A stretch of DNA of 64,000 bases, taken from a virus (Duplodnaviria > Heunggongvirae > Uroviricota > Caudoviricetes). The DNA lies in IMG/VR virus record IMGVR_UViG_3300050821_004987, positions 64,577 to 128,576 of that record; one strand, 5' to 3'. The notes under the pieces were generated by a model. That model searched no databases. It saw only the letters and a program-made list of their open reading frames with translations, and was not told the DNA's origin. This document shows, one piece after another, positions 17,623 to 38,870 of the stretch; within the stretch, counting starts at the first letter, position 1, and each line of letters starts with the position of its first letter. Both the position numbers and the translations under genes were made by a program.

Positions 17623-18396
17623 ATGAAGGGAGTGGTATTGTGTGGTGGGCTTGGAACGAGACTTCGGCCACTGACGGCAGTGGTCAACAAGCATATTTTG
17701 CCTGTGTATAACAAGCCGATGTGTTTCTATCCTTTGGAGATGCTGGCAGAGGCTGGGATAGAAGACGTTATGATCGTCGTCGGTGGGCAGTCGACGGAAG
17801 CGATCATGAAGCTGATTAAGGATGGACGACAGTGGGGTTTCAGATCTTTGTATTATGTCTATCAGGAAGGAGAAGGAGGGATAGCAGCCGCGTTAGCACT
17901 GACAGAGCAGTTCGTAAAGAAGGATACCTGCTGTGTAGTGCTTGGCGATAACATTATGTTGGGTGACTCGCTGAAACCATACACCAAAGATTATCTTCTC
18001 AGTCTGAAAGGAGCCATGGTTCTAGCAGCACAAGTTCCAGATCCACAGAACTATGGAGTACCGACGATCGAGTCCAGAAGTCAGAGTAGTCGGATTCTTT
18101 TCATCACAGAGAAGCCTGAGCACCCGGTTATTAGTCTTGGGATCATCGGAGTCTACTTTTACGACGATACAGTGTTCAGTCGCATCAAGACATGTTCGCC
18201 GTCGAAGCGTGGCGAGCTAGAGATCACAGATGTAAATAATTCCTATGCCTCAGATGGAGATTTGGCTTGGAGGAAGGTGAAAGGCACTTGGATCGATGCC
18301 GGTTCCAGCATCGAAGCCTGGATAGCAGCAGGAAAGATAGTTGAAGAGTATCAGAAGACGCACGAAGAATTCCCAGAATTGCTTAGAAAAGGATGA
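17623..18396 (+). CDS. rfbA: Glucose-1-phosphate thymidylyltransferase-like nucleotidyltransferase
   Basis: 'VVLCGGLGTRLRPLT...KHILPVYNKPMCFYPLEMLAEAGIEDVMIVV...QWGFRSLYYVYQEGEGGIAAA...VLGDNIM' aligns along its length with RmlA/RfbA. Confidence 0.85.
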   Translation: MKGVVLCGGLGTRLRPLTAVVNKHILPVYNKPMCFYPLEMLAEAGIEDVMIVVGGQSTEAIMKLIKDGRQWGFRSLYYVYQEGEGGIAAALALTEQFVKKDTCCVVLGDNIMLGDSLKPYTKDYLLSLKGAMVLAAQVPDPQNYGVPTIESRSQSSRILFITEKPEHPVISLGIIGVYFYDDTVFSRIKTCSPSKRGELEITDVNNSYASDGDLAWRKVKGTWIDAGSSIEAWIAAGKIVEEYQKTHEEFPELLRKG

Positions 18397-18400
18397 GGAC

Positions 18401-19384
18401 ATGAAAATTTTAGTAACAGGAGCATCTGGATTTATTGGCTCACATTTCATCAAGCATGTGATGGAGAAGACAAATCATTCCGTCGTAGCTTTCGTCAGAA
18501 ATTCAAATCAACGAAATATGTCTCGGCTGAGTGTTCCATCAGAAGCGGTAGATAGGGTTCGTACAGTCTTTGGGGATCTTCTGAACGATATCTCCGGGCT
18601 AACAGAAGGTTGTGATGTCGTCGTCAATTTCGCAGCGAAGACGTTTGTGGATCACTCGATCAGAGACCCGTGGCCGTTTATTGAAGCAAACATTGTTGGT
18701 ACTCACAGACTGTTGGAAGATGCAAGACGAAATAAAGTCCGCCAGTTCGTCCAAGTCTCCACAGACGAAGTCTACGGCGCGATTCTCGAAGGCGCGTATC
18801 ACGAAGATGCAAGGATTAATCCGACGAATCCGTACGCTGCGTCAAAAGCTGGAGCAGATGCGCTAGTCATTTCCTATGCTCACACGTTCGGGATGTGGAC
18901 GGCGATCACGAGAACAGAGAATAATGCCGGGCCATATCAGCACCCACAGAAAGTATTTCCAGCATTTGTGAAGAAAGCTTTAGATGGAAAGAAGCTACCG
19001 ATTTATGGAGATGGTAAACATCGACGTCAGTGGCTTTATGTGACCGATCATTGCTCAGCGATATTGAAATTACTCGAATCAGATCAAGAGTCTGGTCAGG
19101 TCTTCCACGTTGCGGGATCTCAAGAACTTGAGAATATAGAATTGGCTAGAAGAATATTAGCTTCGATGGACAGATCGGATGTAGCCTTTCCGTTGAAAGG
19201 GTGTCCATTTGAGCAGCGTGTTAGTTTTTTAGATGATCATGATGCACGACCAGGACACGATCGTCGCTATGCATTACATTGTGATAAGATGAAAGCTTTG
19301 GGATGGAAGCCAGAAGTTTCTTTAGATGTCCTGATAGAGACTACGACAGCGTGGTATCTAGCTAATCAGTGGTGGCTTCAATGA
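18401..19384 (+). CDS. rfbB: dTDP-glucose 4,6-dehydratase
   Basis: 'MKILVTGASGFIGSHF' Rossmann start. 'YAASKAGADALV' YxxxK catalytic motif. Overall SDR-extended layout like RmlB. Confidence 0.85.
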   Translation: MKILVTGASGFIGSHFIKHVMEKTNHSVVAFVRNSNQRNMSRLSVPSEAVDRVRTVFGDLLNDISGLTEGCDVVVNFAAKTFVDHSIRDPWPFIEANIVGTHRLLEDARRNKVRQFVQVSTDEVYGAILEGAYHEDARINPTNPYAASKAGADALVISYAHTFGMWTAITRTENNAGPYQHPQKVFPAFVKKALDGKKLPIYGDGKHRRQWLYVTDHCSAILKLLESDQESGQVFHVAGSQELENIELARRILASMDRSDVAFPLKGCPFEQRVSFLDDHDARPGHDRRYALHCDKMKALGWKPEVSLDVLIETTTAWYLANQWWLQ

Positions 19385-20169
19385 GGAAAGGGCAAAAGGC
19401 ATCGCCAGAACTTAGGCGAAGGTTGTCTTTGGCAGCTGATAAAAGAAATGAGTCAGCTTCGTACAGAGCTGAGCTAAGTAGACTGGCTAAAGAACGTTGG
19501 GCCGATCAGAAGTGGGCCTCAAGACAGACGTCTTTAATACAGAAAGCTTGTAAGACTCCCGAGCATCGTAGAAATCTTAGCATAGCTGTTTCAAAAGAGG
19601 CTACTTCTAAGGAAGGAAGAAAAGTAAGATCAGATAGGATTACGGCCTTATGGAGCGATCCTGTTTGGGCAGCTAATCAACGCTTAAGATTGCAAGAGGC
19701 TTGGACAGAGGAAAGATGCGAGCAAAGGAGTGAGGATATCAGTGAGCACTACAAACAACATCCAGAACGTCGCAGAAAGCTGTCCAGAAGTAGAAAGAAA
19801 TTGTTTTTGGATCCAAAGTTCGCTGAGAGACACGGTCGAAGATTCAAAGAAAGTCCTAACGCAGCTGAAAAGATTATGTTGAAATTTTTGAGAAAGCTAA
19901 AAATCGGTTTTCAGTTTCAGAAGTCAATGCTAGGTTTCTTTCCAGATTTCACGTTGCCAAGTTTGAAGATGATTATTGAGTGCGATGGGGAGTACTGGCA
20001 TTCTCCTTTGAAGGTTCGCAGAAGAGACGCCAGGAAAGATAGGTTGTTTACGAAGGCTGGTTACAAGGTGATCAGAGTATGTAGCGAAGATGTTGTAGAT
20101 AGAACAGAAGAGATATTAGATCAGTTGAAGAAGCTTATAAGAATGGAGATGAAAAAGTGCGCCTCTTAA
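19381..20169 (+). CDS. Free-standing DUF559/Vsr-like endonuclease with N-terminal basic NUMOD-like repeats (homing-endonuclease-like)
   Basis: C-terminal 'FFPDFTLPSLKMIIECDGEYWHS...RRRDARKDRLFTKAGYKVIRV' is a DUF559/PD-(D/E)xK Vsr-like core. N-terminus carries repeated 'xELRRRLSxA' helices. ATGA-coupled between rfbB and downstream genes. Confidence 0.55.
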   Translation: MRKGQKASPELRRRLSLAADKRNESASYRAELSRLAKERWADQKWASRQTSLIQKACKTPEHRRNLSIAVSKEATSKEGRKVRSDRITALWSDPVWAANQRLRLQEAWTEERCEQRSEDISEHYKQHPERRRKLSRSRKKLFLDPKFAERHGRRFKESPNAAEKIMLKFLRKLKIGFQFQKSMLGFFPDFTLPSLKMIIECDGEYWHSPLKVRRRDARKDRLFTKAGYKVIRVCSEDVVDRTEEILDQLKKLIRMEMKKCAS

Positions 20170-20588
20170 ATCCATCGCCAGGTGAAATCCTGGATCGACT
20201 AACTATCTTGGACTTGAAGATTGCAGCCGCAAGAAAGAAAGGCATAGACGAGACACACTTCGAAGCCGAGCAAGCTTCTTTGAAAGAAGTACTCCAGAAT
20301 TGGAATGATGGTGTCGTTGAAGATTGTGTGGGACGAGATGATATTTATGCACAGAAGAAAGGAGACATTGCTTCACATCTGAGCGCTTTGGCAGCAGTCA
20401 ATTCTTTGTTATGGCAGGCAGAGGATGATATCAGGGCAACGCCGGGAACAGAAGCTTTCAAGCTGGCGATACTGGTCAAGAACACAGCCCGTTGGAATGA
20501 TGCGAGAGCGAGTCACGTACGGGAGTTGGATAAGCTGTACGGAATAAAAGACGGACCAGAAAAAATCTACACGGAGAATGTTAGATGA
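20157..20588 (+). CDS. Hypothetical protein
   Basis: 143-aa ORF with no motif recognised. Confidence 0.35.
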   Translation: MRLLNPSPGEILDRLTILDLKIAAARKKGIDETHFEAEQASLKEVLQNWNDGVVEDCVGRDDIYAQKKGDIASHLSALAAVNSLLWQAEDDIRATPGTEAFKLAILVKNTARWNDARASHVRELDKLYGIKDGPEKIYTENVR

Positions 20589-21277
20589 TTAAGCTAGGCG
20601 TTGTACTTCCCAGCTTTATGTACAACGATGTACGCCGTAGCTTAGCAACGGCAGCTTTCCGTTCTCTGGCCAGAACAGAAGGGTATTGGGAACAGAAGGC
20701 AAAGCTGCTGTTGCTGGTAAAGCATGGCCATGAGAATGAGTATCCGGACATAGTCAACAGCTTGGCCGCTGGATTCGACGTAGTATTGAAGACAGACGAA
20801 GGATTGAATGGGACAGAACAGACACTGGCCTTCGGTACTCAGTGGCTACTAGATAACACGGATGTTGACTACGTGACATGGATGGGAGACGATGCGCTGT
20901 TCCACCGGATGTGGCTTTTCCATCTAGCTGGTTTGATACATCGGCATCCAACAGCAAAGAGCTGGTCGGTCTATCGTTCAGCTTATGAGTGGATTCATAA
21001 GTCATTGAGTAGTATAGAGTACGATGTGATGGTCAGATCAATCTGTGGCCACGGGATGACGTTTACGAGACAGGAATGGACGGAGTGGGGTATCAAGTTC
21101 GGGCAAGGATCATGGGAAGCGCCGGACGGAGATACGCTAGATCTCTTACACGTCTACCAGCGGCCGGGAGAACGTTGGGTAACGAGAGTAAGTTTTGTAC
21201 AACATACCGGGAAGAGTGGTGTGCATTGTAGCCCAGATACACCCGAATACGCGCGAGACTTTCAAGGAGAAGGATGA
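20585..21277 (+). CDS. Putative GT-A fold glycosyltransferase (weak)
   Basis: 'LGVVLPSFMYND' GT2-like start. 'WMGDDALFH' DxD-like motif. Confidence 0.35.
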   Translation: MIKLGVVLPSFMYNDVRRSLATAAFRSLARTEGYWEQKAKLLLLVKHGHENEYPDIVNSLAAGFDVVLKTDEGLNGTEQTLAFGTQWLLDNTDVDYVTWMGDDALFHRMWLFHLAGLIHRHPTAKSWSVYRSAYEWIHKSLSSIEYDVMVRSICGHGMTFTRQEWTEWGIKFGQGSWEAPDGDTLDLLHVYQRPGERWVTRVSFVQHTGKSGVHCSPDTPEYARDFQGEG

Positions 21278-22584
21278 TGACAACGAAGGTAGTTGAGAAA
21301 AAAGCCTGTCGAGCCTGTGGTGCCAAGTTCACGAATAAGATCCTATGGAACTTTGGCAATCAGGCGATCATAGACTTTCCAGATGAAGGAGAAGAAGACA
21401 GGGGACGAGCACCGATCCAGTTGGTCCAATGTCCGGCTTGCGATCTGATTCAGCTGAGACATACGGTAGACGCCGATACGCTGTATTCGAAATTCTTCTA
21501 CCGCTCCAGCGTCAACGAGCAGATGAGAGAAGCGTTGAGAGATGTGGTCAACTCAGCGACGAATTTGGTAGACTTATCTCACACGGCTTTCATTTGTGAT
21601 ATCGGAACGAATGATGGTGAGTTGCTTTTGAATTATCCTGAAGATGTATGGAAGATCGGATTCGAGCCAGCTGAAGACTTCGCGAGAGAAGCAGCTGGAA
21701 GATTCAGGGCAAGGAAAGATGAGAAGTTTGAGATCGTACCTAGCTATTTCAACGCAGTAGAAGCGTTGGCTTGTTCACAGATGAAGCTGTACAAGGTAAT
21801 TTCTGCCTGCGCGGTTTTCTATGACTTAGATAATCCGACCGAGTTTCTGTACGACATCAAAAGCATTTTAGCTCCGGATGGCATCTTCGTAGTTCAGATG
21901 AACTATCTGGCGCTGATGATCAAGAATTTGACATTCGATAACGTCGAGCATGAGCATCTTTGTTACTATTCGCTGACGACGCTGAAGAATTTGTTCGACA
22001 AAGTTGGCTTGGATATCTTCGACGTCGAGTTGAATGATGTCAATGGTGGTAGCATCAGGGTCTACGCTTGTCATAAGAATGCTAGACCGATTGGGCATAA
22101 CGTAATCGAGCTACTCATGCAGGAAGCAAATCAGCCACCAGACATAAAGCATTTCGGTGAGCGTGCAATTGCTACATCCAATATCTTGCTCAATTTTCTG
22201 AAAGAGTTGAAGAAGAATGACATGAAGGTTTACGCCTACGGAGCTTCGACGAGAGGTAGTATGATGCTCCAGACCATATTCCGCGAAGAGAAAGCGACAG
22301 ACTATTTGATCGCTGCCGCAGAAAGGGACGAGAGAAAGTATGGTAAGAGGATGGCTGGGTTGGACTTACCGATTATTCCGGAAGCTGAAGCCAGAGAAAA
22401 AGCGGACTACATGCTGGTGCTGCCTTACGCTTTTTGGAGATCAATCCAACAACGAGAAAAAGAATGGATGAGCAAGGGTGGTAAGTTCATTCTGCCGTTG
22501 CCATATCCGAAGGTTGTCCATCTGGAGTCGATGGGTCTAGTGGCACGGGATCTGGATGCTGTGTTAGAGGCGATACGGGTATGA
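21274..22584 (+). CDS. Zinc-ribbon C-methyltransferase family SAM-dependent methyltransferase (NDP-hexose C-methyltransferase-like)
   Basis: N-terminal 'CRACGAKF...CPACDLIQL' zinc-binding domain (Methyltransf_13-like). 'ICDIGTNDGELL' SAM motif I. Long Methyltransf_14-like C-terminal domain. Confidence 0.6.
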   Translation: MMTTKVVEKKACRACGAKFTNKILWNFGNQAIIDFPDEGEEDRGRAPIQLVQCPACDLIQLRHTVDADTLYSKFFYRSSVNEQMREALRDVVNSATNLVDLSHTAFICDIGTNDGELLLNYPEDVWKIGFEPAEDFAREAAGRFRARKDEKFEIVPSYFNAVEALACSQMKLYKVISACAVFYDLDNPTEFLYDIKSILAPDGIFVVQMNYLALMIKNLTFDNVEHEHLCYYSLTTLKNLFDKVGLDIFDVELNDVNGGSIRVYACHKNARPIGHNVIELLMQEANQPPDIKHFGERAIATSNILLNFLKELKKNDMKVYAYGASTRGSMMLQTIFREEKATDYLIAAAERDERKYGKRMAGLDLPIIPEAEAREKADYMLVLPYAFWRSIQQREKEWMSKGGKFILPLPYPKVVHLESMGLVARDLDAVLEAIRV

Positions 22585-22769
22585 AGGGAACAGTAGTCAT
22601 GAGGTTCGTTGGTAATCGGCAGGAGCCAGAAGAAGAGCCTGTTAAGACGAACGATATTCTTTTTATGCCGCCGTTGTTCGATGAGTGGTGGGAAGATTTC
22701 ATGCAAAGAGAAGTTGATAGAATGAAGATAGCTTGTGGGCTACAAGTTCCGATAGGAAAACTAGAATGA
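22581..22769 (+). CDS. Small hypothetical protein
   Basis: 62-aa ORF, ATGA-coupled at both ends. Confidence 0.25.
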   Translation: MKGTVVMRFVGNRQEPEEEPVKTNDILFMPPLFDEWWEDFMQREVDRMKIACGLQVPIGKLE

Positions 22770-23695
22770 AAAAAGCAATCGTCTTCGGAGGCTCCGGACA
22801 GATGGGATCGTATCTGGTTGAACTATTGAGAGGGAAGGGCTACTGGGTTGAGAAGCCTTCCAGACACTACATAAACTTTGACGATCTGAGCATGACGACT
22901 TTGCGGTTTTATCTAGAGCAAGAACGTCCGGATGAGATCTACAACCTAGCCGGGCTGAACTACGCTCCAGATTCCTGGCATCTTCCAGCGTTGTATATGC
23001 AGGTGAATGGCACAGCCGTGGTCCGCTTGTTGAGTCTGGTAAAAGAGATTTTGCCACAGACGAAATTCTTTCAAGCTGGATCGGCAGAGGTATTCGATAA
23101 AGGTTCCATTCAGCAGTACGAAGATACGAACCGGTTACCGGAGAATCCATACGGGCTTTCGAAGATGTTAGCCATGGAAGCCGTTCGTATTTACAGAGAC
23201 AAGTACGAGCTGTTCGCCTGTACAGGCATCTTCTTTAACGCCGAGTCACCAAGACGACAGAAGACATTCTTTGCCGAGAAGGTAGCGATGGAAGTCGCCC
23301 GGTTGGTGAAGCATCGAGAGAAAAGTTTGCCATATTTTATAGAGCTTGATCGTTTGGATGCCAGAAGGGACTGGGGTTTCGCTGGTGAGTATGCAGAGGT
23401 AGCTTGGAGAATGCTCCAAGCAGATGTTCCAACAGACTTGGTCATTGGCACCGGGGAGACCCACACTTGCAAAGAGTTCGTAATGGAAGCTTTGAAGGTA
23501 GCGGGCTTGCCAGACGTCGAGAAGAATTTCGATCTCTATGTGAAGTACGACAAGACAGAAGAGTTGGGGAATTGCATGAGAGCGATGCCAATAGCCGCTA
23601 AGATAATTCATGATTGGGAAGCGAAGTACAAGTTCAAGGACGTTGTGAAGATGCTGGTAGAAGCCGAGCTACGGATAGAGGCCCTCGTTGAGTAA
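22766..23695 (+). CDS. GDP-mannose 4,6-dehydratase family enzyme (second paralogue, possibly an Rmd-type reductase)
   Basis: 'AIVFGGSGQMGSYLVELL' Rossmann start. 'GIFFNAESPRR...RDWGFAGEYAEV...LVIGTGETHTCKEFV' parallels the Gmd core. Confidence 0.65.
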   Translation: MKKAIVFGGSGQMGSYLVELLRGKGYWVEKPSRHYINFDDLSMTTLRFYLEQERPDEIYNLAGLNYAPDSWHLPALYMQVNGTAVVRLLSLVKEILPQTKFFQAGSAEVFDKGSIQQYEDTNRLPENPYGLSKMLAMEAVRIYRDKYELFACTGIFFNAESPRRQKTFFAEKVAMEVARLVKHREKSLPYFIELDRLDARRDWGFAGEYAEVAWRMLQADVPTDLVIGTGETHTCKEFVMEALKVAGLPDVEKNFDLYVKYDKTEELGNCMRAMPIAAKIIHDWEAKYKFKDVVKMLVEAELRIEALVE

Positions 23696-25608: not shown

Positions 25609-25811
25609 GATTGCATCCAGCTCCAGATCTTGTTGACGTGTCGTATCCTTGGTATGCGTCGAGAGTAAGGGCTATGTCCTTTTCGAAGCAGTTTTATACG
25701 ACAGAGAATGGATGGACAGTAGCTTCACAGATTTGTTTCAAGTGGTTGGCGACGATTAAGGAAGAGCTTGTGACTTTCAAGATTTTGAAGTGGAAAGGTG
25801 CAGTAAGTTGA
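25605..25811 (+). CDS. Small hypothetical protein
   Basis: 68-aa ORF, ATGA-coupled. Confidence 0.2.
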   Translation: MRLHPAPDLVDVSYPWYASRVRAMSFSKQFYTTENGWTVASQICFKWLATIKEELVTFKILKWKGAVS

Positions 25812-26746
25812 AAGTAGCACACGTAGTAAATAAGAATGCAGTCTGTGGCTATGCTGAGTACGCCAGAGAGCTGGACTGGGAACTTAAAAAAGAATTCGAG
25901 TCTAGCATTGTCGAGCCGGGTCAAGAGATCGGCGATGTAGATGTTGTGATAGCCAGCTATGGTTCGACAGAGACGCTGGGACTGACGCCACACCAGACCG
26001 AGGAGTGGCGACAGCAGGGAAAGAAAGTAATCTTGCTCCACAGAGAAAGTGAAGGAGATCTGGTAGAGAATTGTACAATACCTGTGAAGCACTTTCTTGG
26101 TCACGTGGATTCGATCATAACGCATGAGCCGACGAACTATAGCGAGTTCATTCCGATTTCGTTTCCAGCAGTAGTCAGTTTGCCGGATGCCGAGCTTAGA
26201 TTGGTAATCGGTTCGGCTGGGTTTTACGATACGATGAAGCATTTTGAGGACGTGGTCGAGCTGGCCAGACGGACGGGTGGGAATGTGAATTTGTCGATAG
26301 CACACTACTGGCGATCTGATCTGAGTCATGTAAAAAGAAACATAGCCGAGATGAAGAAGAAAGAAGTAGAAGGAGACTGGATCGAGTTAGTTGATTGGCC
26401 AGTAGCGACAGTGATCAGACAGTTAGCCAGATCGACGATCAACATGTTTTGGCACTGGCCGATCAATCCTTGTTCCCAGTCAACATCAGTCGGGATGGCG
26501 ATAGCTGCAAAGCGACCGTTGATTATTTCGCCTCACAGAAGGTTCCGAGTTATTTTGGAGCAGTATGCCGACGAAGTGTACGTAGCCAGGACAGGTGATG
26601 AAGCAGTCGGGATTGTGAAAGAGGTCTGGGACGCGATTAAGAACGGACGACCGGTGCGTATCCCAGACAGACTTTACAAGGCATATAACTGGGAGACTTG
26701 TGGTGAAACATACAGAAAGCTGATTCACAAGGTGATAGGACGATGA
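25790..26746 (+). CDS. Glycosyltransferase-like protein, paralogue 1 of 3
   Basis: 'LKVAHVVNKNAVCGYAEYAREL' parallels the N-termini of the next two ORFs. GT-B or GT4-like N-terminus. Confidence 0.45.
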   Translation: MERCSKLKVAHVVNKNAVCGYAEYARELDWELKKEFESSIVEPGQEIGDVDVVIASYGSTETLGLTPHQTEEWRQQGKKVILLHRESEGDLVENCTIPVKHFLGHVDSIITHEPTNYSEFIPISFPAVVSLPDAELRLVIGSAGFYDTMKHFEDVVELARRTGGNVNLSIAHYWRSDLSHVKRNIAEMKKKEVEGDWIELVDWPVATVIRQLARSTINMFWHWPINPCSQSTSVGMAIAAKRPLIISPHRRFRVILEQYADEVYVARTGDEAVGIVKEVWDAIKNGRPVRIPDRLYKAYNWETCGETYRKLIHKVIGR

Positions 26747-27702
26747 GAGTAGGACTCATAACAAGTTTTCCACCAGAACGATGCGGGGTTGCTTCGAATG
26801 CGGTTAATTTGGTGAACAACAAAGCAGATGATGTGGAGTATAAGATCATCGAAGGTTGCTCTTGGAGAAAACCTTTTACACACGATCAAGTAATGGCTGA
26901 GTCAGAAGATTGTGATATAGTGCATCTGACCTATGAGCGATCTTTACATCTGGGTTTGTTCCCAGGAACTTTTTACGGGTTGCGTGAGAAAGGTAAGAAG
27001 ACGATCATCACGTACTACAATATCTGGCCAGGAGACTATCAAGATGCTGAGATGGTGAAAGCTTTCGATGTCGTTATCGTGCCGGATGAGGTAGAGGCCA
27101 AGGTTCGTGGATATGAGTATGTTCCACATGGCGTGATGGAAGTAACTGAGCTAGGACCGTTGGGTTCAGTACGTTCGTTAGGGACAGCAGGGTTCCCAAC
27201 ACCAGCAAAAGGTTCATTGATAATGGCCGATGTTTGTCGAGAGTTAGGGTTACACTTTTTTGTTGTAGCCCCACTTTCCAGACACGCTGATGCAGCGTGG
27301 ATGAGAACAGAGATCGAGAAGAGATGTCAGACTTGTTCATTCGTCCATGAGTTTCTGTTGCAAGAGGAGATTGTTAGAATGCTGTCGTGCTGCACGATAA
27401 CAGCTTGGTTGTATACAGCTATACCACAGCAGTCTGGATTGTCTGGTTCAATCAGATTGGGTTGTGCTGCGAAGAGACCGATGGTAGCTTCGATGATGGG
27501 AATGTACCGGGATCTGTTTCAGTATGACGACGAGATCAATTTTATACAGACAGAGACGCCAACATTTGCAACAGTTTTACCAGTCGTTCAGTACGCACTG
27601 GAGCATCCAGAGAAGAGACCAGACCGAGTTGTGAAAGAGCAGAGTTGGAATAAATGTGGACAGATGTATGCTGAGATCTATAGAAAGGTTTTAGCAGCAT
27701 GA
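26743..27702 (+). CDS. Glycosyltransferase-like protein, paralogue 2 of 3
   Basis: 'MRVGLITSFPPERCGVASNAVNLVN' is a GT4-like start. ATGA-coupled. Confidence 0.45.
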   Translation: MRVGLITSFPPERCGVASNAVNLVNNKADDVEYKIIEGCSWRKPFTHDQVMAESEDCDIVHLTYERSLHLGLFPGTFYGLREKGKKTIITYYNIWPGDYQDAEMVKAFDVVIVPDEVEAKVRGYEYVPHGVMEVTELGPLGSVRSLGTAGFPTPAKGSLIMADVCRELGLHFFVVAPLSRHADAAWMRTEIEKRCQTCSFVHEFLLQEEIVRMLSCCTITAWLYTAIPQQSGLSGSIRLGCAAKRPMVASMMGMYRDLFQYDDEINFIQTETPTFATVLPVVQYALEHPEKRPDRVVKEQSWNKCGQMYAEIYRKVLAA

Positions 27703-28616
27703 ACGTCGGAGTACTGACACACGTTCAAGAAGCTTGTGGAGTGGCTGAGTATGGGGCTGATTTGATCAGGGAGCTTGGTCGGTATTTTGAAGTTGATAAG
27801 CTTGAGAAGATAGAAGAGTATGACGTTCTCGTAGTTAATTGGCATCCAGCAAAACTGAACTTGGACGCCGATAAGATTAGACGATGGCAGTCTCATGGCT
27901 GTAAGGTGATCGTACTTATCCACAATTCAGCAGAAGGAATGGTTGTTTCTGGAATTAACGATGCTCTTGCTGTAGCAGATGCAGTTGTAGCGCACGAGCC
28001 AGTAGAGTTCCGAGGAGATATCAAAAGATTTCAGCATATCGAGCATGGGATTCCAGAGGTAGATGTAAAGAATTTGCTCTACTCGTTTTCGATCGGAACG
28101 GCTGGCTTCGCGTTCGCTCATAGACAGTTTGATATGGTGATCGACTTAGCACAACAGTTCGGGATGTTTGGAAATATTATTTGTCCGCCGTATTCTTGTC
28201 ACGTTGACCCAGATGAGCTAGAGAAAAAGTGGCGTCAAAAACTGGGCAGCCATTTGCATATGATCAAGTCGTTTATGCCGAGAGAGTTTGTGATTAAGAC
28301 GCTGGCGAGCTCTTTGATAAACGTTTTCTGGTTCGAGTCTCAGAAAGCAAACGATGATCTGGGTCAGAGTGGTTCAGTTAGAATGGGAATAGCAGCTCAG
28401 CGGCCAGTCATCTTGAACAGATCCAGAAAGTTCAGAACACTGTTTCCCTACGAAGACGAGTTGTATTTTTGTAATAATAAAGAGGAAGCGGTGGCTGCGG
28501 TAATGACGATCTTGAAGACAGATAGTCCAAAGATGCCAAAGCGAGTGATGAAAGATCAAGCTTGGTCAAAGGTAGCACTAGATTGGAAAAAGCTGATCGA
28601 GGAAGTGGCAGCATGA
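27699..28616 (+). CDS. Glycosyltransferase-like protein, paralogue 3 of 3
   Basis: 'MNVGVLTHVQEACGVAEYGADLIRELG'. Same length class and layout as the previous two. Confidence 0.45.
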   Translation: MNVGVLTHVQEACGVAEYGADLIRELGRYFEVDKLEKIEEYDVLVVNWHPAKLNLDADKIRRWQSHGCKVIVLIHNSAEGMVVSGINDALAVADAVVAHEPVEFRGDIKRFQHIEHGIPEVDVKNLLYSFSIGTAGFAFAHRQFDMVIDLAQQFGMFGNIICPPYSCHVDPDELEKKWRQKLGSHLHMIKSFMPREFVIKTLASSLINVFWFESQKANDDLGQSGSVRMGIAAQRPVILNRSRKFRTLFPYEDELYFCNNKEEAVAAVMTILKTDSPKMPKRVMKDQAWSKVALDWKKLIEEVAA

Positions 28617-29332
28617 TCTTGTCACGAGTTATGAGAGAGAAAGATTACGACGAGCTGAAAGACGAAGGCCGCGTGATCACAGAGCTACACGACGAGATCA
28701 ATATGTGGCACGATACCCAGCACCATCATAGGCTATGGGAGTATGCACTAGCTCAGAAGGCTTTGAAAGGTGTTTATGGAGACTATGGAAGTAAGATCGG
28801 TTTACGAGTAGCAGACTTCGGATGTGGTGCCGGCTATTTGAGTCCAATTCTCTACAAGCTTGGGCATCATGTGTTCATGTACGATTGCTGGACGTTTCCG
28901 AATCAAGAAGAGTTTGCAATGGAGCAGATGAGAAGGATAGAACCTACGGGTGGATCCTATGAGATGCGGAATCGTTCGCTGGGCAGTCTGGTGGAAGAAG
29001 ACAAAGGCATGGACGCAGCCTTTTGTATATCGACACTCGAGCACATTAAGGACTATCGGAAGGCTTTTCGGGATCTACTGAGTACGGTCAAGCCAAGAGG
29101 ATTGGTATTTTTGACAACAGACTTTGGGACACATGAGACAGACGACTACAAGTGGGCCAATCTGCGGGCAGGAAAGATGTTTACAGCAGATACTTACAAC
29201 GAGTTGTACGCCATTGCTAGAGGATTGAATTTCGCAACAGTTCAAGGTGCGGCTGATTGGAAATGGGACGAGAGTTGTCGTTTGGTTTCAGATTATGGAT
29301 TCGCTTCTATGGCCCTTTGGAGATTATCATGA
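28613..29332 (+). CDS. Class I SAM-dependent methyltransferase
   Basis: 'VADFGCGAGYLSPIL...HHVFMYDC' motif I and post-I region. ATGA-coupled. Confidence 0.65.
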   Translation: MILSRVMREKDYDELKDEGRVITELHDEINMWHDTQHHHRLWEYALAQKALKGVYGDYGSKIGLRVADFGCGAGYLSPILYKLGHHVFMYDCWTFPNQEEFAMEQMRRIEPTGGSYEMRNRSLGSLVEEDKGMDAAFCISTLEHIKDYRKAFRDLLSTVKPRGLVFLTTDFGTHETDDYKWANLRAGKMFTADTYNELYAIARGLNFATVQGAADWKWDESCRLVSDYGFASMALWRLS

Positions 29333-29811
29333 GTGAGTTACTGCAAGCTCAGAGAATAGCTCGTCCCATCTTGGCTCGTATATTGCGTAATCGACCAGAT
29401 GATGTAGATGATGTATTACAGACGGCCTCTCTTAGGGCATTCGACAAGATGGGGCAGTTTGAGCACCGATCGAAATTTTCGTCTTGGTTCGTACGCATAG
29501 CTATCAGATCAGCTTTGATGCATTTGCGTACGAAAGAAATAAAGCACGAGCATCAATATATTCCTGTCGATGATCTAGATAAGCTTTCTGTTTTCGATCA
29601 AGAGACTCCAGAAGACTTTGTGATTAGAAAAGAGCTAGAGGATCATAGGAGAGAACGCCTCCACAAAGCGATACGGCTTTTAACACCGAAGCGTCAGAGA
29701 ACGATTTACGCTTATCTAGAAGATAGGCATACGAATACGTCAGCAGAAAAAGGAAGGTTGCACGCAGCTCGTGTACAGTTAAAGATGATTCTTACGGGAG
29801 AGAAAGCATGA
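29329..29811 (+). CDS. ECF-like sigma-70 family sigma factor
   Basis: Region 2 'DVDDVLQTASLRAFDKMGQFEHRSKFSSWFVRIAIRSALMHLR'. Region 4 'LTPKRQRTIYAYLEDRHTNTSAEKGRLHAARVQL'. Confidence 0.65.
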   Translation: MSELLQAQRIARPILARILRNRPDDVDDVLQTASLRAFDKMGQFEHRSKFSSWFVRIAIRSALMHLRTKEIKHEHQYIPVDDLDKLSVFDQETPEDFVIRKELEDHRRERLHKAIRLLTPKRQRTIYAYLEDRHTNTSAEKGRLHAARVQLKMILTGEKA

Positions 29812-30764
29812 TGAAAGTTGCACTGATAACGGGAGCATTTGGTCAGGACGGCTCGTACCTTACAGAGCATCTACTTGGGCTAGGGTACAGAGTTTTCAAA
29901 GGAACGAGAAGGGTACTCGACACACCAGATGAGATGGCAGTGTACTGCGACGTCCGAGACGAACTCAGCATTCGATCAGCAATAAAGAAAGCATGGCCCG
30001 ATGAGATTTATAATCTAGCCGGCCAAGTCTACGTCCCGATCAGTTGGGAACAGCCAGCAGAGACGTTCGATGTGAACACGAGTGGGCTGGCCAGGATTTT
30101 GAAAGTAGTCGAGCAAGTGAAGAAAGATACAAAGGTCTATCAAGCATCCAGCTCGGAGATGTTCGGTAATCATGAAGGCACTTGTAACGATCAGACGCCG
30201 ATGAATCCGACATCGCCGTATGGAGTTTCGAAATACGCAGCTCACAGATTGGTCAGCTTGTACAGGAGTAAGGGTCTGTACGTAGTGGCGGGAATTCTTT
30301 TCAATCACGAGAGCCCACGCCGTGGACATGAGATGGTGACGAGAAAGATCGCGCATCAATGTGCTCAGTGGGCACATGGATCAAAAGATATGTTGTCGTT
30401 GGGTAATATGGACTCGAGAAGGGACTGGGGTTTCGCTGGTGAGTACGTCAAGGCAATGCAATTAATGCTCCAGCCAGAGATCGCAACCGATTACGTTCTC
30501 GGAACGGGAGAGTCACATTCTGTCGCCGATTTCCTGGACGCAGCTCGGATAGAGATGGGTCTTGACGAAGACTTTGTGAAGGGGCATACTATTACCGACA
30601 CAAGGCTCACCAGAACGCAGGAAATCTACAACATGCGGGCAGACAATACCAAAGCACGGGTTTGTCTAGGTTGGGAATCAGAGATTGGTTTCCGGGAGTT
30701 GGTGCGGTTGATGACTTGGGAGGAGTTCAATAAGTTGCTTGGAAAGGAAAAGGTGACAGCATGA
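29808..30764 (+). CDS. gmd: GDP-mannose 4,6-dehydratase
   Basis: 'KVALITGAFGQDGSYLTEHLL', 'YGVSKYAAHRLV', 'GILFNHESPRRG...RKIA...LGNMDSRRDWGFAGEYV' align closely with Gmd. Confidence 0.85.
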   Translation: MMKVALITGAFGQDGSYLTEHLLGLGYRVFKGTRRVLDTPDEMAVYCDVRDELSIRSAIKKAWPDEIYNLAGQVYVPISWEQPAETFDVNTSGLARILKVVEQVKKDTKVYQASSSEMFGNHEGTCNDQTPMNPTSPYGVSKYAAHRLVSLYRSKGLYVVAGILFNHESPRRGHEMVTRKIAHQCAQWAHGSKDMLSLGNMDSRRDWGFAGEYVKAMQLMLQPEIATDYVLGTGESHSVADFLDAARIEMGLDEDFVKGHTITDTRLTRTQEIYNMRADNTKARVCLGWESEIGFRELVRLMTWEEFNKLLGKEKVTA

Positions 30765-30931
30765 AAGACATTCTACAGCCAGTGAATACGACACAGTCGT
30801 CTTCGCCTTCGATTACTCATGCAGCAATGGAGCCAGCAAACTGGCGGGCTCAAGGTCAGACGGACGTTCAGCAAGCGGTGAAAGACAATCCGACGAAGAA
30901 TCCGATCTGTCCAAAGTCAGTGACAAAGTGA
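30761..30931 (+). CDS. Small hypothetical protein (56 aa)
   Basis: ATGA start. Ends in a GTGA overlap with the next gene. Confidence 0.25.
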   Translation: MKDILQPVNTTQSSSPSITHAAMEPANWRAQGQTDVQQAVKDNPTKNPICPKSVTK

Positions 30932-31778: not shown

Positions 31779-31991
31779 ATGGATAAGCAGCCAAAGAGAA
31801 AAGAAGGGAACTTCATCAATTTGAAAGCTCCCGGTCCGACATCAGCCGTCGGGATTCAAGATATAGCTCTGGGTTGTTGGTCTACGTTTGGCGCACATGA
31901 GAGAACGGACGTAGCCAAGAAGATAGCCGAGCAGCCCAGATTGAATCCGGTAGATCCTAAGACGCTGAAGTCGGGTGGGGAGCTATCATGA
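31779..31991 (+). CDS. Small hypothetical protein
   Basis: RBS GGAGGCTGT. 70 aa. Confidence 0.3.
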   Translation: MDKQPKRKEGNFINLKAPGPTSAVGIQDIALGCWSTFGAHERTDVAKKIAEQPRLNPVDPKTLKSGGELS

Positions 31992-37541: not shown

Positions 37542-37544
37542 TTT

Positions 37545-37552: not shown

Positions 37553-37572
37553 GTAGTAAGGAGACTAGAACG

Positions 37573-38859: not shown

Positions 38860-38870
38860 GGACGGATGAG

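What the first reader, a model, noticed from the sequence alone, without database searches (positions are those of the whole stretch)
17623..30764. 13-kb NDP-sugar biosynthesis and glycosylation island with its own sigma factor and a class B radical-SAM enzyme
Seen in sequence: rfbA and rfbB (dTDP-4-keto-6-deoxyglucose), a zinc-ribbon C-methyltransferase, two Gmd-family enzymes (29808 is a canonical Gmd; 22766 is a divergent copy that could be an Rmd-type reductase giving GDP-D-rhamnose), an LMW-PTP-like phosphatase, a B12-binding radical SAM enzyme, three tandem paralogous GT-like genes, two SAM methyltransferases and a GT-A-like ORF. An ECF-like sigma factor (29329..29811) is embedded in the operon, and a homing-endonuclease-like gene interrupts it. 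Inference: the phage makes a methylated 6-deoxyhexose glycan for virion glycosylation, host-surface remodelling, or nucleic-acid decoration linked to the queCDE module.
Basis: partly seen in the sequence, partly recalled or inferred. Interest (0 to 1): 0.55.

Follow-up and report, generated by a model that had tools for sequence, protein, structure and literature searches.

The report
Phage methylated-deoxysugar glycosylation island
An uncultured ~130-kb phage carries a conserved block of 17 soluble enzymes that should make a C-methylated 6-deoxysugar and build a methylated glycan in the infected cell; similar cassettes are already known in phages, but one with a B12-type radical SAM enzyme is not, and what gets glycosylated is still unknown.

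Summary
Pfam, NCBIfam, PDB and two high-confidence structure models confirm 17 co-directional, overlapping ORFs between 17623 and 30764:
- RmlA-like and RmlB-like enzymes
- a TylC3/TcaB9-type sugar 3-C-methyltransferase
- two GMD-family enzymes
- a B12-binding radical SAM enzyme
- one GT-A and three paralogous GT-B glycosyltransferases
- a CX5R phosphatase-like protein
- an ECF-type sigma with no detectable region 4
- a free-standing DUF559 endonuclease

The island is a long-standing phage module, not a host fragment. Six divergent viral lineages carry it, and two relatives have inteins in its genes. The core is DUF4254 + GT-A + C-methyltransferase + GMD, and the C-methyltransferase always sits next to a GMD gene. 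This points to a GDP-6-deoxy-3-C-methyl-hexose, as proposed for Coxiella virenose. A deposited cyanophage genome (DSL-LC02) has Gmd, C-MT and Fcl followed by a row of GTs.

No island protein has a membrane segment. No flippase, polymerase or priming transferase is present. The block is continuous with Ig-domain giant proteins and the lysis genes. Virion-protein glycosylation is therefore my leading reading, but it is unproven.

The sigma factor is not shown to be the island's own regulator, and no link to queC was found. Verdict: a new variant of a known kind, of moderate interest.

The parts
16707..17144 (+). CxxCxxCC (PF03692) cysteine-cluster protein. A syntenic upstream neighbour of the island in relatives; membership uncertain.
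   Evidence: Pfam 5.3e-8. Orthologues lie upstream of the island in L001, L002, L003 and L032.
17623..18396 (+). RmlA-like sugar-1-phosphate nucleotidylyltransferase (257 aa, short C-terminus).
   Evidence: NTP_transferase 3.3e-44; rmlA 203.7 bits, below cut-off, covering model positions 1-241 of 286. Present in 3 of 6 lineages.
18401..19384 (+). RmlB-like NDP-glucose 4,6-dehydratase.
   Evidence: TIGR01181 309.9 bits, full length. The orthologue in L002 carries an intein.
19381..20169 (+). Free-standing DUF559/Vsr-like (PD-(D/E)xK) endonuclease, homing-endonuclease-like. It sits between genes and does not split an ORF.
   Evidence: DUF559 1.5e-12; PHROGs HNH/homing endonuclease families. Found only in this phage, not in L001-L003, L017 or L032.
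20157..20588 (+). DUF4254-like 143-aa protein. Core member, function unknown.
   Evidence: Partial PF14063 hit, 30 bits. Present in all six lineages.
20585..21277 (+). GT-A fold glycosyltransferase with a DxD motif. Core member.
   Evidence: Model pLDDT 94.6. Foldseek hits to POMGnT1, SpsA, GnT-I, ppGalNAc-T2 and TarP at 1e-8 to 1e-6. D102 and D103 are invariant in 36 sequences. 108 homologues, all on metagenomic contigs of at most 131 kb.
21274..22584 (+). NDP-hexose 3-C-methyltransferase family enzyme (zinc domain + SAM domain + C-terminal domain). Core member.
   Evidence: Pfam PF08421/PF13489/PF08484. PDB 4rv9 3.5e-42, TcaB9 and KijD1, all full length. Always adjacent to a GMD-family gene.
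22581..22769 (+). 62-aa ORF of unknown function.
   Evidence: Conserved in L001 at 44% identity; present in public gene calls.
22766..23695 (+). Divergent GMD paralogue (Gmd2). Candidate 4-ketoreductase or second dehydratase.
   Evidence: GDP_Man_Dehyd 3.8e-59. GMDs score 1e-46 against RMDs at 6e-7 and 6e-6. It keeps S-x-E and YxxxK. The NADP fingerprint is changed and the RR/YxDxRD segment is missing.
23688..24200 (+). CX5R(S) cysteine-phosphatase-like domain (about 105 aa) plus a Cys-rich C-terminal tail.
   Evidence: Invariant C8, G11, R14, S15, D76 and D80 in 28 sequences. JGI names homologues 'predicted protein tyrosine phosphatase'. PDB profile hits are sub-significant only, and seven of the eight are Cys phosphatases or pseudophosphatases.
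24193..25608 (+). B12-binding-domain radical SAM enzyme (class B architecture).
   Evidence: PF02310 37.6 bits, PF04055 76.3 bits; CxxxCxxC at 218-225. Best NCBIfam matches are PhpK, ApyD and HpnJ, all below cut-off. Best PDB match is AprD4, 1e-12. Present in 5 of 6 island lineages.
25605..25811 (+). 68-aa ORF of unknown function.
   Evidence: Conserved in L003 at 53% identity, in the same position after the radical SAM gene.
25790..26746 (+). GT-B-like glycosyltransferase paralogue a.
   Evidence: 25-32% identity among the three; aligned with the modelled family.
26743..27702 (+). GT-B-like glycosyltransferase paralogue b.
27699..28616 (+). GT-B (GT4-like) glycosyltransferase paralogue c, the most conserved copy.
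   Evidence: Model pLDDT 93.7. Foldseek hits to GtfA/B, BA1558, BshA, PimA, Gtf3, SenB and ManT at 1e-9 to 1e-7. BFVD hits are viral group-1 GTs. The family has only 28 proteins.
28613..29332 (+). Class I SAM methyltransferase, a candidate sugar O-methyltransferase.
   Evidence: Methyltransf_23 8.9e-13, Methyltransf_11 1.2e-8. Present in 4 of 6 lineages.
29329..29811 (+). ECF-type sigma factor with region 2 only detectable.
   Evidence: Sigma70_r2 3.7e-10; TIGR02937 50.2 bits against 42.9. The alignment to solved ECF sigmas ends at residue 117 of 160. Homologues lie beside Gmd genes in L002 and L003.
29808..30764 (+). Canonical GDP-mannose 4,6-dehydratase (Gmd1). Core member.
   Evidence: GDP_Man_Dehyd 6e-88; TIGR01472 270.9 bits. 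It has S-S-E, YxxxK and NHESPRRG..VTRK. Present in all six lineages.
30928..31557 (+). Conserved 209-aa neighbour of unknown function. It follows Gmd1 directly or within about 1 kb in relatives; membership uncertain.
   Evidence: Orthologues lie after Gmd1 in L001, L002 and L003, at 38-65% identity.

Best explanation
The island is a modular, vertically maintained phage glycosylation system that works in the host cytoplasm.

Shown:
- The enzyme families and folds.
- The conserved core.
- The adjacency of the C-methyltransferase and a GMD gene in every lineage.
- The absence of membrane components.

Inferred pathway:
1. Gmd1 converts host GDP-mannose to GDP-4-keto-6-deoxymannose.
2. The TylC3/TcaB9-type enzyme methylates C3 through the 4-keto enolate.
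3. A reductase finishes a GDP-6-deoxy-3-C-methyl-hexose. Gmd2 is the best candidate, since its NADP(H) fingerprint is remodelled. A bifunctional Gmd1 is the alternative.
4. RmlA-like and RmlB-like enzymes feed a second, dTDP-linked 6-deoxyhexose branch. This branch needs host enzymes or an unidentified reductase to finish.
5. The GT-A enzyme and the three GT-B paralogues assemble an oligosaccharide.
6. The SAM methyltransferase O-methylates it.
7. The B12-domain radical SAM enzyme tailors an unactivated sugar carbon. This could be C-methylation in the manner of GenK, or radical deoxygenation in the manner of AprD4 with Gmd2 as the AprD3-like reductase.

The most likely acceptor is a phage-made protein of the virion, as in cluster O and F mycobacteriophages. 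The sigma factor and the endonuclease are passengers, not parts of the pathway.
For: - Families and folds.
- Synteny: the island occurs in the window phage, L001, L002, L003, L017 and L032. The core is DUF4254 + GT-A + C-MT + Gmd1.
- Adjacency: the C-MT is next to a GMD-family gene in all six lineages, separated at most by the 62-aa ORF. The same holds in Synechococcus phage DSL-LC02, which has Gmd, C-MT, GDP-fucose synthase and then a row of GTs with one FkbM methyltransferase. L003, L017 and L032 keep the C-MT and Gmd without RmlAB within about 10 kb of the locus, which favours a GDP-linked substrate.
- Precedent: the same Gmd + TylC3-like + reductase logic was proposed for Coxiella virenose (PMC3539893).
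- Long residence in phages: all ORFs are intact and composition matches the genome. Relatives carry inteins in the RmlB active site and in the CxxxCxxC motif of the radical SAM enzyme.
- Soluble system: no protein has a 19-residue hydrophobic window of 1.6 or more. Among the Pfam, NCBIfam and PHROGs hits there is no Wzx, Wzy or priming transferase.
- Expression context: there is no + strand gap longer than 58 nt from 59 to 33141. That stretch also holds the Ig-domain 294-, 1050- and 1876-aa proteins and an endolysin.
[quoted passage not shown] 2023).
- Radical SAM linkage: an orthologous radical SAM enzyme (about 54% identity) sits inside a different, conserved GT cassette just upstream of the terminase gene in a ~55-kb phage group.
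Against: - No acceptor is identified.
- Capsid and tail genes are not in the window or in the 10 kb upstream.
- GT-A and GT4-like folds serve lipid, protein, sugar and small-molecule acceptors alike.
- The GTs have no detectable homology to any GT in 50,697 phage records, including the mycobacteriophage ones.
- All enzyme matches fall below the NCBIfam equivalog cut-offs, so substrates are inferred.
- All characterised members of the C-MT family use dTDP-sugars. This is my own knowledge of TylC3, TcaB9 and KijD1.
- L032 has the core without the radical SAM enzyme, and L017 and L032 lack Gmd2 and the SAM methyltransferase. The later steps are therefore optional.
- Cobalamin use is not shown. 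The best solved relative, AprD4, has a B12-like domain but is a dehydratase.
Confidence: 0.45

Rival explanations
1. Host-envelope remodelling. The island supplies unusual NDP-sugars and peripheral GTs that alter the host's lipopolysaccharide, capsule or S-layer glycan during infection. The effect would be to block superinfection or to avoid trapping of progeny. This is the explanation long proposed for cyanophage 'LPS' gene clusters.
For: - RmlA and RmlB are present without RmlC or RmlD, which suggests they feed a host rhamnose-type pathway.
- GT-A and GT4-like folds are typical of O-antigen glycosyltransferases.
- Cyanophages carry Gmd/Fcl/GT clusters that have been discussed in this way (PMC10611076, citing Sullivan et al. 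2005).
- The closest described pathway logic, virenose, is an O-antigen sugar.
Against: - No membrane protein, flippase, polymerase, ligase or polyprenol-phosphate priming transferase is present among the 17 ORFs, and no hydrophobic segments were found.
- The block runs on from the lysis genes, which suggests late expression when surface change brings little benefit.
- No integrase or lysogeny gene was seen in the window, although only part of it was scanned.
Confidence: 0.25
2. A soluble glycoconjugate. The product is a small-molecule glycoside or an intracellular methylated polysaccharide, not a modification of a macromolecular phage component.
For: - The nearest characterised relatives of the C-MT (mycarose, TcaB9, KijD1) and of the radical SAM enzyme (AprD4; GenK-type chemistry) come from antibiotic sugar pathways.
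- GT-B fold hits include the methylmannose-polysaccharide mannosyltransferase 7qsg and small-molecule GTs (BshA, SenB, AviGT4).
Against: - No aglycone or scaffold biosynthesis genes lie in or beside the island.
- No exporter is present.
- Conservation across lytic-looking phage genomes is hard to explain for a metabolite.
Confidence: 0.12
3. DNA hypermodification. The sugars are attached to modified bases in phage DNA, possibly together with the downstream QueC module.
For: - QueC, an aminotransferase and a GT2 lie at 37573-40230, and a weak radical SAM hit at 47815.
- Phage DNA glycosyltransferases with GT-A and GT-B folds exist. This is my own knowledge of T4 AGT and BGT.
- Oligosaccharide-like thymidine modification is reported for YerA41 (PMC9023294 abstract).
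Against: - No base hydroxymethylase, DNA base kinase or transglycosylase was found in the island.
- The top 50 structural neighbours of the GT-B model include no DNA glucosyltransferase.
- The island is about 8 kb and about 20 genes from queC, and in relatives it travels without it within 10-kb flanks.
Confidence: 0.08
4. Recently captured, decaying host polysaccharide gene fragment with no function for the phage.
For: Individual enzymes have bacterial homologues. The radical SAM family also occurs on Acidobacteriota chromosomes.
Against: - All 17 ORFs are intact and joined by ATGA-type overlaps.
- GC content and skew match the rest of the window.
- The core is conserved in six divergent phage lineages.
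- The GT-A family has 108 members, all on phage-sized contigs.
- Inteins and a homing-type endonuclease have colonised the genes.
Confidence: 0.02

Closest known systems
Cyanophage NDP-sugar/glycosyltransferase clusters, for example Synechococcus phage DSL-LC02 (OR032571.1, 91.9-102.4 kb)
   Same: It has Gmd immediately next to a TylC3-family C-methyltransferase (28% identity to the window enzyme, 95% coverage). A 4-keto-processing SDR, a row of soluble GTs and a SAM methyltransferase follow, all co-directional.
   Different: DSL-LC02 uses a GDP-fucose synthase (GMER) where this island has a GMD paralogue. It has no B12-domain radical SAM enzyme, RmlAB, DUF4254, phosphatase-like gene or sigma, and its GTs are unrelated at sequence level. 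Its C-MT is annotated only as 'methyltransferase domain-containing protein' and is not discussed in the paper. Its function is untested.
Mycobacteriophage virion glycosylation cassettes (cluster O and F; Freeman et al. 2023, as summarised in PMC11600133)
   Same: Three tandem glycosyltransferase genes lie next to a methyltransferase gene in a phage. [quoted passage not shown]
   Different: There is no sequence homology: tblastn of the GT against all phage records finds nothing. No NDP-sugar synthesis genes are mentioned in the text I read. The host phylum differs. The target here is unproven.
Proposed GDP-virenose (6-deoxy-3-C-methyl-hexose) pathway of Coxiella burnetii (PMC3539893)
   Same: GMD + TylCIII-type 3-C-methyltransferase + a 4-ketoreductase or a bifunctional GMD. 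The same ambiguity between a dTDP and a GDP route applies.
   Different: It is bacterial and serves an O-antigen. It is itself an in-silico proposal. It has no radical SAM enzyme.
Sugar-tailoring radical SAM enzymes with a B12-binding-type domain, from aminoglycoside pathways (GenK and GenD1 C-methylases; AprD4 diol dehydratase with the AprD3 reductase)
   Same: An N-terminal B12-binding-type domain plus a radical SAM core acting in a sugar pathway. AprD4 is the best solved match (1e-12).
   Different: Similarity is low: no NCBIfam equivalog cut-off is approached (122 bits or less against cut-offs of 500-750). The substrate would be an NDP-sugar or a glycan, not an aminoglycoside. The setting is a phage.
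Giant-virus autonomous glycosylation systems (chlorovirus PBCV-1 GMD/GMER; mimivirus clusters)
   Same: Virus-encoded NDP-6-deoxysugar synthesis plus soluble GTs that decorate the virion. Foldseek finds GT1-group GTs of giant viruses among the structural neighbours. The comparison of systems rests on my own knowledge.
   Different: These are eukaryotic viruses with different GT families. No C-methyltransferase or radical SAM tailoring is known there, to my knowledge.

Membership tests
RmlA, glucose-1-phosphate thymidylyltransferase (TIGR01207) | Whole-protein score at or above the equivalog cut-off, with full-length coverage including the C-terminal subdomain. | tested here: not met
   203.7 bits against 360.65. 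The alignment covers model positions 1-241 of 286. The NTP_transferase fold itself is clear at 3.3e-44.
RmlB, dTDP-glucose 4,6-dehydratase (TIGR01181) | Full-length extended-SDR match with the GxxGxxG and YxxxK motifs. | tested here: met
   Model positions 1-318 of 321 are aligned. TGASGFIGSH and YAASK are read directly in the sequence. The score of 309.9 is still below the cut-off of 365.1.
NDP-hexose 3-C-methyltransferase (TylC3 / TcaB9 / KijD1) | Three-domain architecture: N-terminal four-Cys zinc domain, SAM domain and C-terminal Methyltransf_14 domain, aligned full length to solved members. | tested here: met
   PF08421 + PF13489 + PF08484. CRAC...CPAC at residues 11-14 and 53-56. 4rv9 3.5e-42 over 11-415.
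NDP-hexose 3-C-methyltransferase (TylC3 / TcaB9 / KijD1) | Methylation at C3 of an NDP-4-keto-6-deoxyhexose, and the identity of the nucleotide. | not testable with these tools
   The only evidence is genomic: a GMD gene is adjacent in 6 of 6 lineages and in DSL-LC02.
GDP-mannose 4,6-dehydratase (TIGR01472), Gmd1 29808-30764 | Catalytic S/T-x-E and YxxxK plus the NADP fingerprint FNHESPRRG..VTRK. | tested here: met
   Alignment A5. Pfam 6e-88. 270.9 bits is below the equivalog cut-off of 415.
GDP-mannose 4,6-dehydratase, Gmd2 22766-23695 | The same fingerprint plus the RR/YxDxRD cofactor segment. | tested here: not met
   S-A-E and YxxxK are kept. NHESPRRG..VTRK becomes NAESPRRQ..FAEK, and the segment is deleted in the window, L001 and L003 orthologues.
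GDP-4-keto-6-deoxymannose reductase (RMD) | Closer sequence relationship to solved RMDs than to GMDs. | tested here: not met
   RMD 6x3b 5.9e-7 and 2pk3 6.4e-6, against GMDs at 9e-46 to 2e-35. This does not exclude reductase activity.
Class B (cobalamin-dependent) radical SAM | An N-terminal B12-binding domain followed by a radical SAM core with CxxxCxxC. | tested here: met
   PF02310 37.6 bits (cut-off 32.1); PF04055 76.3 bits; C218-x3-C222-x2-C225.
Class B (cobalamin-dependent) radical SAM | Actual cobalamin binding and methyl transfer. | not testable with these tools
   No characterised subfamily cut-off is reached. The best solved relative, AprD4, is a dehydratase.
GT-B glycosyltransferase (GT4-like) | Two Rossmann-like domains with the GT-B topology. 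| tested here: met
   The model has pLDDT 93.7. The top 50 PDB hits are all GT-B enzymes, at 2e-9 to 3e-7. No Pfam GT family matches.
GT-A glycosyltransferase | A single Rossmann-like GT-A fold with a DxD metal and nucleotide-sugar motif. | tested here: met
   pLDDT 94.6. Hits to POMGnT1, SpsA and GnT-I at 1.7e-8 to 2e-7. D102-D103 are invariant.
Low-molecular-weight protein tyrosine phosphatase | A CX5R(S/T) P-loop near the N-terminus and a downstream catalytic Asp. | tested here: met
   C8, R14, S15, D76 and D80 are invariant in 28 homologues.
Low-molecular-weight protein tyrosine phosphatase | A significant sequence or fold match to LMWPc. | tested here: not met
   No Pfam hit at E up to 0.1. 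The profile against PDB gives a best E of 0.054 (a dual-specificity phosphatase) and 1.5 for YwlE.
ECF (group IV) sigma factor | Both the sigma-2 and sigma-4 domains. | tested here: inconclusive
   Sigma-2 is clear. No r4 Pfam hit was found, and the alignments to ECF structures stop at residue 117 of 160. The C-terminal 43 residues look like a shortened helix-turn-helix, by direct reading.
Mycobacteriophage-type virion glycosylation cassette | Homology to the GTs of those phages, and glycans on capsid and tail proteins. | tested here: not met
   tblastn of the GT against 50,697 phage records finds no match. Glycans cannot be tested here. Only the architecture is similar.
Homing endonuclease | A nuclease domain plus sporadic presence at an otherwise conserved site. 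| tested here: met
   DUF559/Vsr domain; PHROGs homing/HNH families. The gene is absent between RmlB and the next gene in L001 and L002. Mobility itself cannot be tested.

The most novel reading that the evidence does not exclude
The B12-domain radical SAM enzyme is the founding member of a phage- and Acidobacteriota-borne clade. It would perform radical tailoring (C-alkylation or deoxygenation) of a nucleotide sugar or nascent glycan. Together with the 3-C-methyltransferase it would give a doubly branched or alkylated 6-deoxyhexose not yet described in nature, displayed on phage particles. This would be the first cobalamin-type radical SAM chemistry assigned to virus glycosylation.
Probability: 0.25. 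Interest if true: 0.7.

Novelty: new variant of a known kind. Interest (0 to 1): 0.45.

Why it matters
- Phage-encoded glycosylation is only beginning to be documented. Mycobacteriophage virions are the worked example, and there it affects antibody recognition.
- This island shows that a clade of large environmental phages maintains a much richer sugar toolkit. At least 108 contigs carry the GT-A marker. The toolkit covers NDP-sugar synthesis, C-methyl branching, O-methylation, four GTs and a radical SAM tailoring enzyme.
- It offers three previously undescribed enzyme families for glycoengineering: compact 305-aa GT-B and 230-aa GT-A enzymes, and a new B12-type radical SAM clade.
- It gives a testable route to a GDP-linked 3-C-methyl-6-deoxyhexose. 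That chemistry is so far only proposed in silico for the Coxiella virulence sugar virenose.

Tried and rejected
1. Near-identical DNA in 50,697 phage records: none.
2. Homology between the island GTs and the GTs that flank the radical SAM orthologue in the ~55-kb phages: hhalign probabilities below 1%. Only the radical SAM enzyme, and in L017 and L032 an RGP-like protein, are shared.
3. Streptomyces phage SF3 B12-radical SAM as an analogue: 25% identity, and its neighbours are thymidylate kinase and NUDIX. It is unrelated in context.
4. Bacterial context of the radical SAM homologue as a functional clue. On Acidobacteriota chromosomes it lies between housekeeping genes (CysS, an aminotransferase, a GalT-like gene in two MAGs) and a TonB-dependent receptor, which is not informative. 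The small ORF downstream of it is unrelated to the window's 68-aa ORF.
5. Island-specific promoters, terminators, ECF boxes, riboswitches or tRNAs: none above chance.
6. Capsid and tail genes next to the window, to look for an acceptor: the 10 kb upstream holds small genes, an HNH protein and a Metallophos protein, with no structural genes. A look-up of the first ORF failed because its start differs from the public call.
7. Literature on DUF4254 and on phage cobalamin radical SAM enzymes: nothing relevant.
8. The Freeman et al. 2023 paper is not held, so it is cited second-hand.
9. Rmd identity of the second GMD copy: rejected on similarity.

Full report

Between 17623 and 30764 the + strand carries 17 ORFs. 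Most overlap by a few bases, typically ATGA, and none is separated by more than a few bases. Public gene calls made on the same phage in two other assemblies agree with this map.

- **RmlA-like (17623-18396).** NTP_transferase 3.3e-44. The best NCBIfam match is rmlA at 203.7 bits, below the 360.65 cut-off. Only model positions 1-241 of 286 align, so the usual C-terminal subdomain is missing.
- **RmlB-like (18401-19384).** 309.9 bits against a cut-off of 365.1, full length.
- **C-methyltransferase (21274-22584).** It has the three-domain architecture with the four-Cys zinc domain. It aligns end to end with solved sugar 3-C-methyltransferases: D-mycarose 3-C-MT 4rv9 at 3.5e-42, TcaB9 and KijD1.
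- **Canonical GMD (29808-30764).** GDP_Man_Dehyd 6e-88.
- **Divergent GMD paralogue (22766-23695).** See section 4.
- **B12-binding + radical SAM protein (24193-25608).** It carries C218-x3-C-x2-C.
- **Class I SAM methyltransferase (28613-29332)**.
- **Sigma (29329-29811).** It has a clear region 2.
- **DUF559/Vsr-type nuclease (19381-20169).** It also matches PHROGs homing/HNH endonuclease families.

**2. The ORFs without any Pfam or PHROGs match**

These were resolved by structure prediction.
- **Three tandem genes at 25790-28616.** They are true paralogues at 25-32% identity. The third was modelled from a 28-sequence alignment and has pLDDT 93.7. All of its top PDB neighbours are GT-B (GT4-like) glycosyltransferases: GtfA/B, BA1558, BshA, PimA, Gtf3, SenB and the methylmannose-polysaccharide mannosyltransferase. 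In the viral structure library it matches group-1 GTs of uncultured Caudovirales, giant viruses and archaeal viruses.
- **The 230-aa ORF at 20585-21277.** The model has pLDDT 94.6 and a GT-A fold (POMGnT1, SpsA, GnT-I, ppGalNAc-T2, TarP). A D102-D103 pair is invariant in 36 homologues, which is the DxD motif.
- **The 170-aa ORF at 23688-24200.** It has no significant Pfam or PDB match. Its first 105 or so residues belong to a family of about 60 short proteins that JGI calls 'predicted protein tyrosine phosphatase'. In that family C8, G11, R14, S15, D76 and D80 are invariant. A family profile finds only sub-significant PDB hits, and seven of the eight are cysteine phosphatases or pseudophosphatases. 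'Cysteine-phosphatase-like' is therefore reasonable but rests on a motif. The Cys-rich C-terminal tail occurs only in this phage and one close relative.

I find one SAM methyltransferase besides the C-methyltransferase, not two. There is also a DUF4254-like gene (20157-20588) that turns out to belong to the conserved core.

**3. What kind of object is it?**

The window comes from an uncultured phage. Identical proteins lie on contigs of up to 128.6 kb in several metagenomes. The phage has no close relative among 50,697 deposited phage genomes.

Searches of IMG/VR with the radical SAM enzyme and with the GT-A family recovered five other lineages that carry the island: L001/L029, L002/L031, L003/L030, L017/L033 and L032. 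Orthologue identities are 33-77%.

| Component | Lineages (of 6) | Note |
|---|---|---|
| DUF4254, GT-A, C-methyltransferase, canonical GMD | 6 | The core |
| Radical SAM enzyme | 5 | Absent from L032 |
| Gmd2 | 4 | |
| SAM methyltransferase | 4 | |
| GT-B family | 4 | One to three copies; L017 and L032 have an RGP-like (PF03214) protein instead |
| RmlA/RmlB | 3 | |
| Phosphatase-like gene | 2 | |
| DUF559 nuclease | 1 | This phage only |

Other signs point the same way.
- Base composition and strand skew in the island match the rest of the window.
- In L002 the RmlB gene carries an intein at TFVDH|C...GN|S. In L017 the radical SAM gene carries one exactly at the first Cys of the CxxxCxxC motif.
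- The GT-A family has 108 members, all on metagenomic contigs of at most 131 kb.

Together these show an old, functional, modular phage island that selfish elements have colonised. It is not a recently captured or decaying host fragment.

**4. Pathway inference**

The strongest genomic signal is adjacency. In all six lineages the C-methyltransferase is next to a GMD-family gene, separated at most by the 62-aa ORF. The same pairing occurs in the deposited genome of Synechococcus phage DSL-LC02. There the order is Gmd, C-MT, GDP-L-fucose synthase, then a row of GTs with an FkbM methyltransferase. That C-MT is annotated only as a methyltransferase-domain protein and is not discussed by the authors.

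L003, L017 and L032 keep the C-MT and Gmd without RmlAB. I therefore infer that the C-MT acts on GDP-4-keto-6-deoxymannose to give a GDP-6-deoxy-3-C-methyl-hexose. This is the logic proposed in silico for Coxiella virenose, including the same uncertainty over the reductase and over a dTDP versus a GDP route (PMC3539893). The caveat is that the characterised family members all use dTDP-sugars. That point is from my own knowledge.

Gmd2 is much closer to true GMDs (9e-46 to 2e-35) than to RMDs (6e-7 and 6e-6), so it is not an Rmd-family member. It retains S-x-E and YxxxK. However, its NADP fingerprint is altered (FNHESPRRG..VTRK becomes FNAESPRRQ..FAEK). It also lacks the RR/YxDxRD segment of the cofactor-binding domain. 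This fits a change in cofactor handling, for example exchangeable NAD(P)H in a reductase. That step is inference.

Gmd2 lies directly upstream of the radical SAM gene in L001 and L002. One gene separates them in the window (the phosphatase-like ORF) and in L003 (a GT-B gene).

RmlA and RmlB would give dTDP-4-keto-6-deoxyglucose. No RmlC or RmlD is present, so this accessory branch must be completed by host enzymes or by an unassigned reductase.

**5. The radical SAM enzyme**

It has the class B architecture. It approaches no characterised subfamily: PhpK family 122 bits, ApyD 110, HpnJ 106, AprD4 67, all far below cut-off. The best solved relative is AprD4 at 1e-12.

Orthologues at about 54% identity occur in 13 contigs of a separate ~55-kb phage group. 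There they sit in a conserved cassette: RGP-like, radical SAM, a 239-aa ORF, a GT1-like gene, a PHROGs-type GT and a GT2-like gene with a zinc ribbon. The cassette lies just upstream of the large terminase. Those GTs are unrelated to the window's. L017 has the RGP-like gene directly after its radical SAM gene.

A chromosomal homologue, 70-75% identical to the ~55-kb phage version, is present in Acidobacteriota MAGs in a housekeeping context next to a TonB-dependent receptor. This suggests Acidobacteriota as hosts for at least that phage group.

The enzyme is thus repeatedly recruited into phage glycosylation cassettes regardless of which GTs or NDP-sugar genes accompany it. PHROGs v4 has no family for it or for the C-MT. 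I found no paper describing such an enzyme in phage glycosylation. Whether it methylates (GenK or GenD1 type), dehydrates (AprD4 type, with Gmd2 in the AprD3 role) or does something else cannot be decided here.

**6. Target of glycosylation**

None of the 17 proteins has a hydrophobic segment. The profile hits include no flippase, polymerase, ligase or polyprenol-phosphate priming transferase. The system is therefore cytoplasmic and lacks an export route of its own.

From 59 to 33141 there is no + strand gap above 58 nt. There is no excess of promoter- or terminator-like sites. That stretch also encodes a 474-aa methyltransferase (its start lies upstream of the window), Ig-domain proteins of 294, 1050 and 1876 aa, and an endolysin. 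This suggests co-expression with late, particle-associated functions.

[quoted passage not shown] 2023). There is no sequence homology to them.

I therefore rank the readings as follows:

| Reading | Confidence |
|---|---|
| Virion-protein glycosylation | about 0.45 |
| Host-envelope remodelling | 0.25 |
| A soluble glycoconjugate | 0.12 |
| DNA decoration | 0.08 |

queC and its neighbours lie 8 kb away and do not travel with the island in relatives.

**7. Sigma factor and endonuclease**

The sigma has a good ECF-type sigma-2 region. Alignments to solved ECF sigmas end at residue 117 of 160, no region-4 model matches, and the C-terminal 43 residues look like a shortened helix-turn-helix.

Homologues lie beside Gmd genes in L002 and L003 but are not seen in the flanks of L001. 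A generic ECF box is not enriched: 5 matches against 6.5 expected. The gene is embedded in the island, but nothing shows that it regulates it.

The DUF559 nuclease sits between RmlB and the DUF4254 gene without splitting an ORF, and it is unique to this phage. It is a typical free-standing homing-type insertion.

**8. Novelty and score**

Phage and giant-virus NDP-sugar and GT islands are a known kind. The Gmd + C-MT + GT arrangement already exists, uncharacterised, in a deposited cyanophage genome. Three things are new here:
- the recurrent B12-domain radical SAM tailoring enzyme;
- the GMD paralogue with a remodelled cofactor site;
- two sequence-novel compact GT families and a DUF4254 core partner, all in a sizeable clade of environmental phages.

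I rate it a new variant of a known kind, with interest 0.45.

Noticed in passing
window 43391-43463, 47650-47800, 54644-54711, 56459-56568, 62362-62480: Five intergenic regions consist of degenerate pentanucleotide arrays (GGTNN)n, 10 to about 25 units long, for example GGTAAGGTATGGTGAGGTAAGG. Each ends just before a strong AAGGAG ribosome-binding site and a start codon. TRF reports period-5 arrays with consensus GGTAA, GGTTA or TGGTC. None lies between 59 and 33141. They could be promoters, 5' leader elements or protein-binding arrays.
   Followed up: partly
window 51160-51364 and 58443-58538: Two intergenic regions share a near-identical box, GGAATAAACTATACTT(A/T)TCT(C/T)GTGGGGG, followed by a G/C hairpin. 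It looks like a repeated sigma-70-type -10 region (TATACT) with a conserved transcript start structure.
   Followed up: no
L002 3998-6205 and L017 8489-10906: Two relatives carry inteins in island genes. One is in the RmlB-like dehydratase: a 735-aa ORF with insertion at TFVDH|CYSADTEV...VWCGN|SIRDPW. The other is in the radical SAM enzyme: an 805-aa ORF with insertion exactly at the first Cys of the CxxxCxxC cluster motif (ARG|CIVAGTLV...).
   Followed up: partly
L004-L016 (IMG/VR contigs of about 55 kb), e.g. L016 8653-14759: A second phage group has a conserved cassette: RGP-like (PF03214), B12-radical SAM, a 239-aa ORF, a GT1-like gene, a PHROGs GT and a GT2-like gene with a zinc ribbon. 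It lies between a helicase/DNA methyltransferase gene and the large terminase. Only the radical SAM enzyme is shared with the window.
   Followed up: partly
L024-L028 (Acidobacteriota MAG contigs of up to 894 kb): A chromosomal homologue of the radical SAM enzyme is 70-75% identical to the ~55-kb phage version and 51-55% identical to the window's. It is flanked by CysS, an aminotransferase, UPF0102 and a GalT-like gene upstream, and by a small ORF and a TonB-dependent receptor downstream. This suggests gene exchange with Acidobacteriota, which may be hosts.
   Followed up: partly
window 34057-40230, 44876-45898, 47815-48573, 57260-58177: There is further modification machinery outside the island: an ATLF-like protein, an InPase-family protein, a class III aminotransferase, QueC directly overlapping a GT2 gene, a GT1-like gene, a weak radical SAM hit and a GT9-like gene. 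Counting these, the window encodes at least seven glycosyltransferase-like proteins.
   Followed up: no
window 59-12341: A SAM methyltransferase (474 aa in public gene calls, with its start upstream of the window) directly precedes Ig-domain proteins of 294 and 1050 aa (He_PIG, TIG, HYDIN-like, DUF1573), a 498-aa protein and a giant 1876-aa protein. An endolysin at 13704 and a membrane/coiled-coil protein at 17084 follow. These may be surface-exposed virion proteins and candidate glycan acceptors.
   Followed up: no
L022 (Synechococcus phage DSL-LC02, OR032571.1 100148-101386): The gene annotated 'methyltransferase domain-containing protein', between Gmd and GDP-L-fucose synthase, is a TylC3-family sugar C-methyltransferase (28% identity to the window enzyme over 95% of its length). 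This cyanophage therefore probably also makes a C-methyl-branched 6-deoxyhexose, which its description does not mention.
   Followed up: partly
window 31975-32835: This ORF has a markedly His/Lys/Gly-rich central segment (HRHHAVMSPHMREKGGHTHSEVKREHVKHSAGHHSGKHGVRHSGLKHGKPGGKG) and no family match. Public gene calls split the region into shorter ORFs.
   Followed up: no
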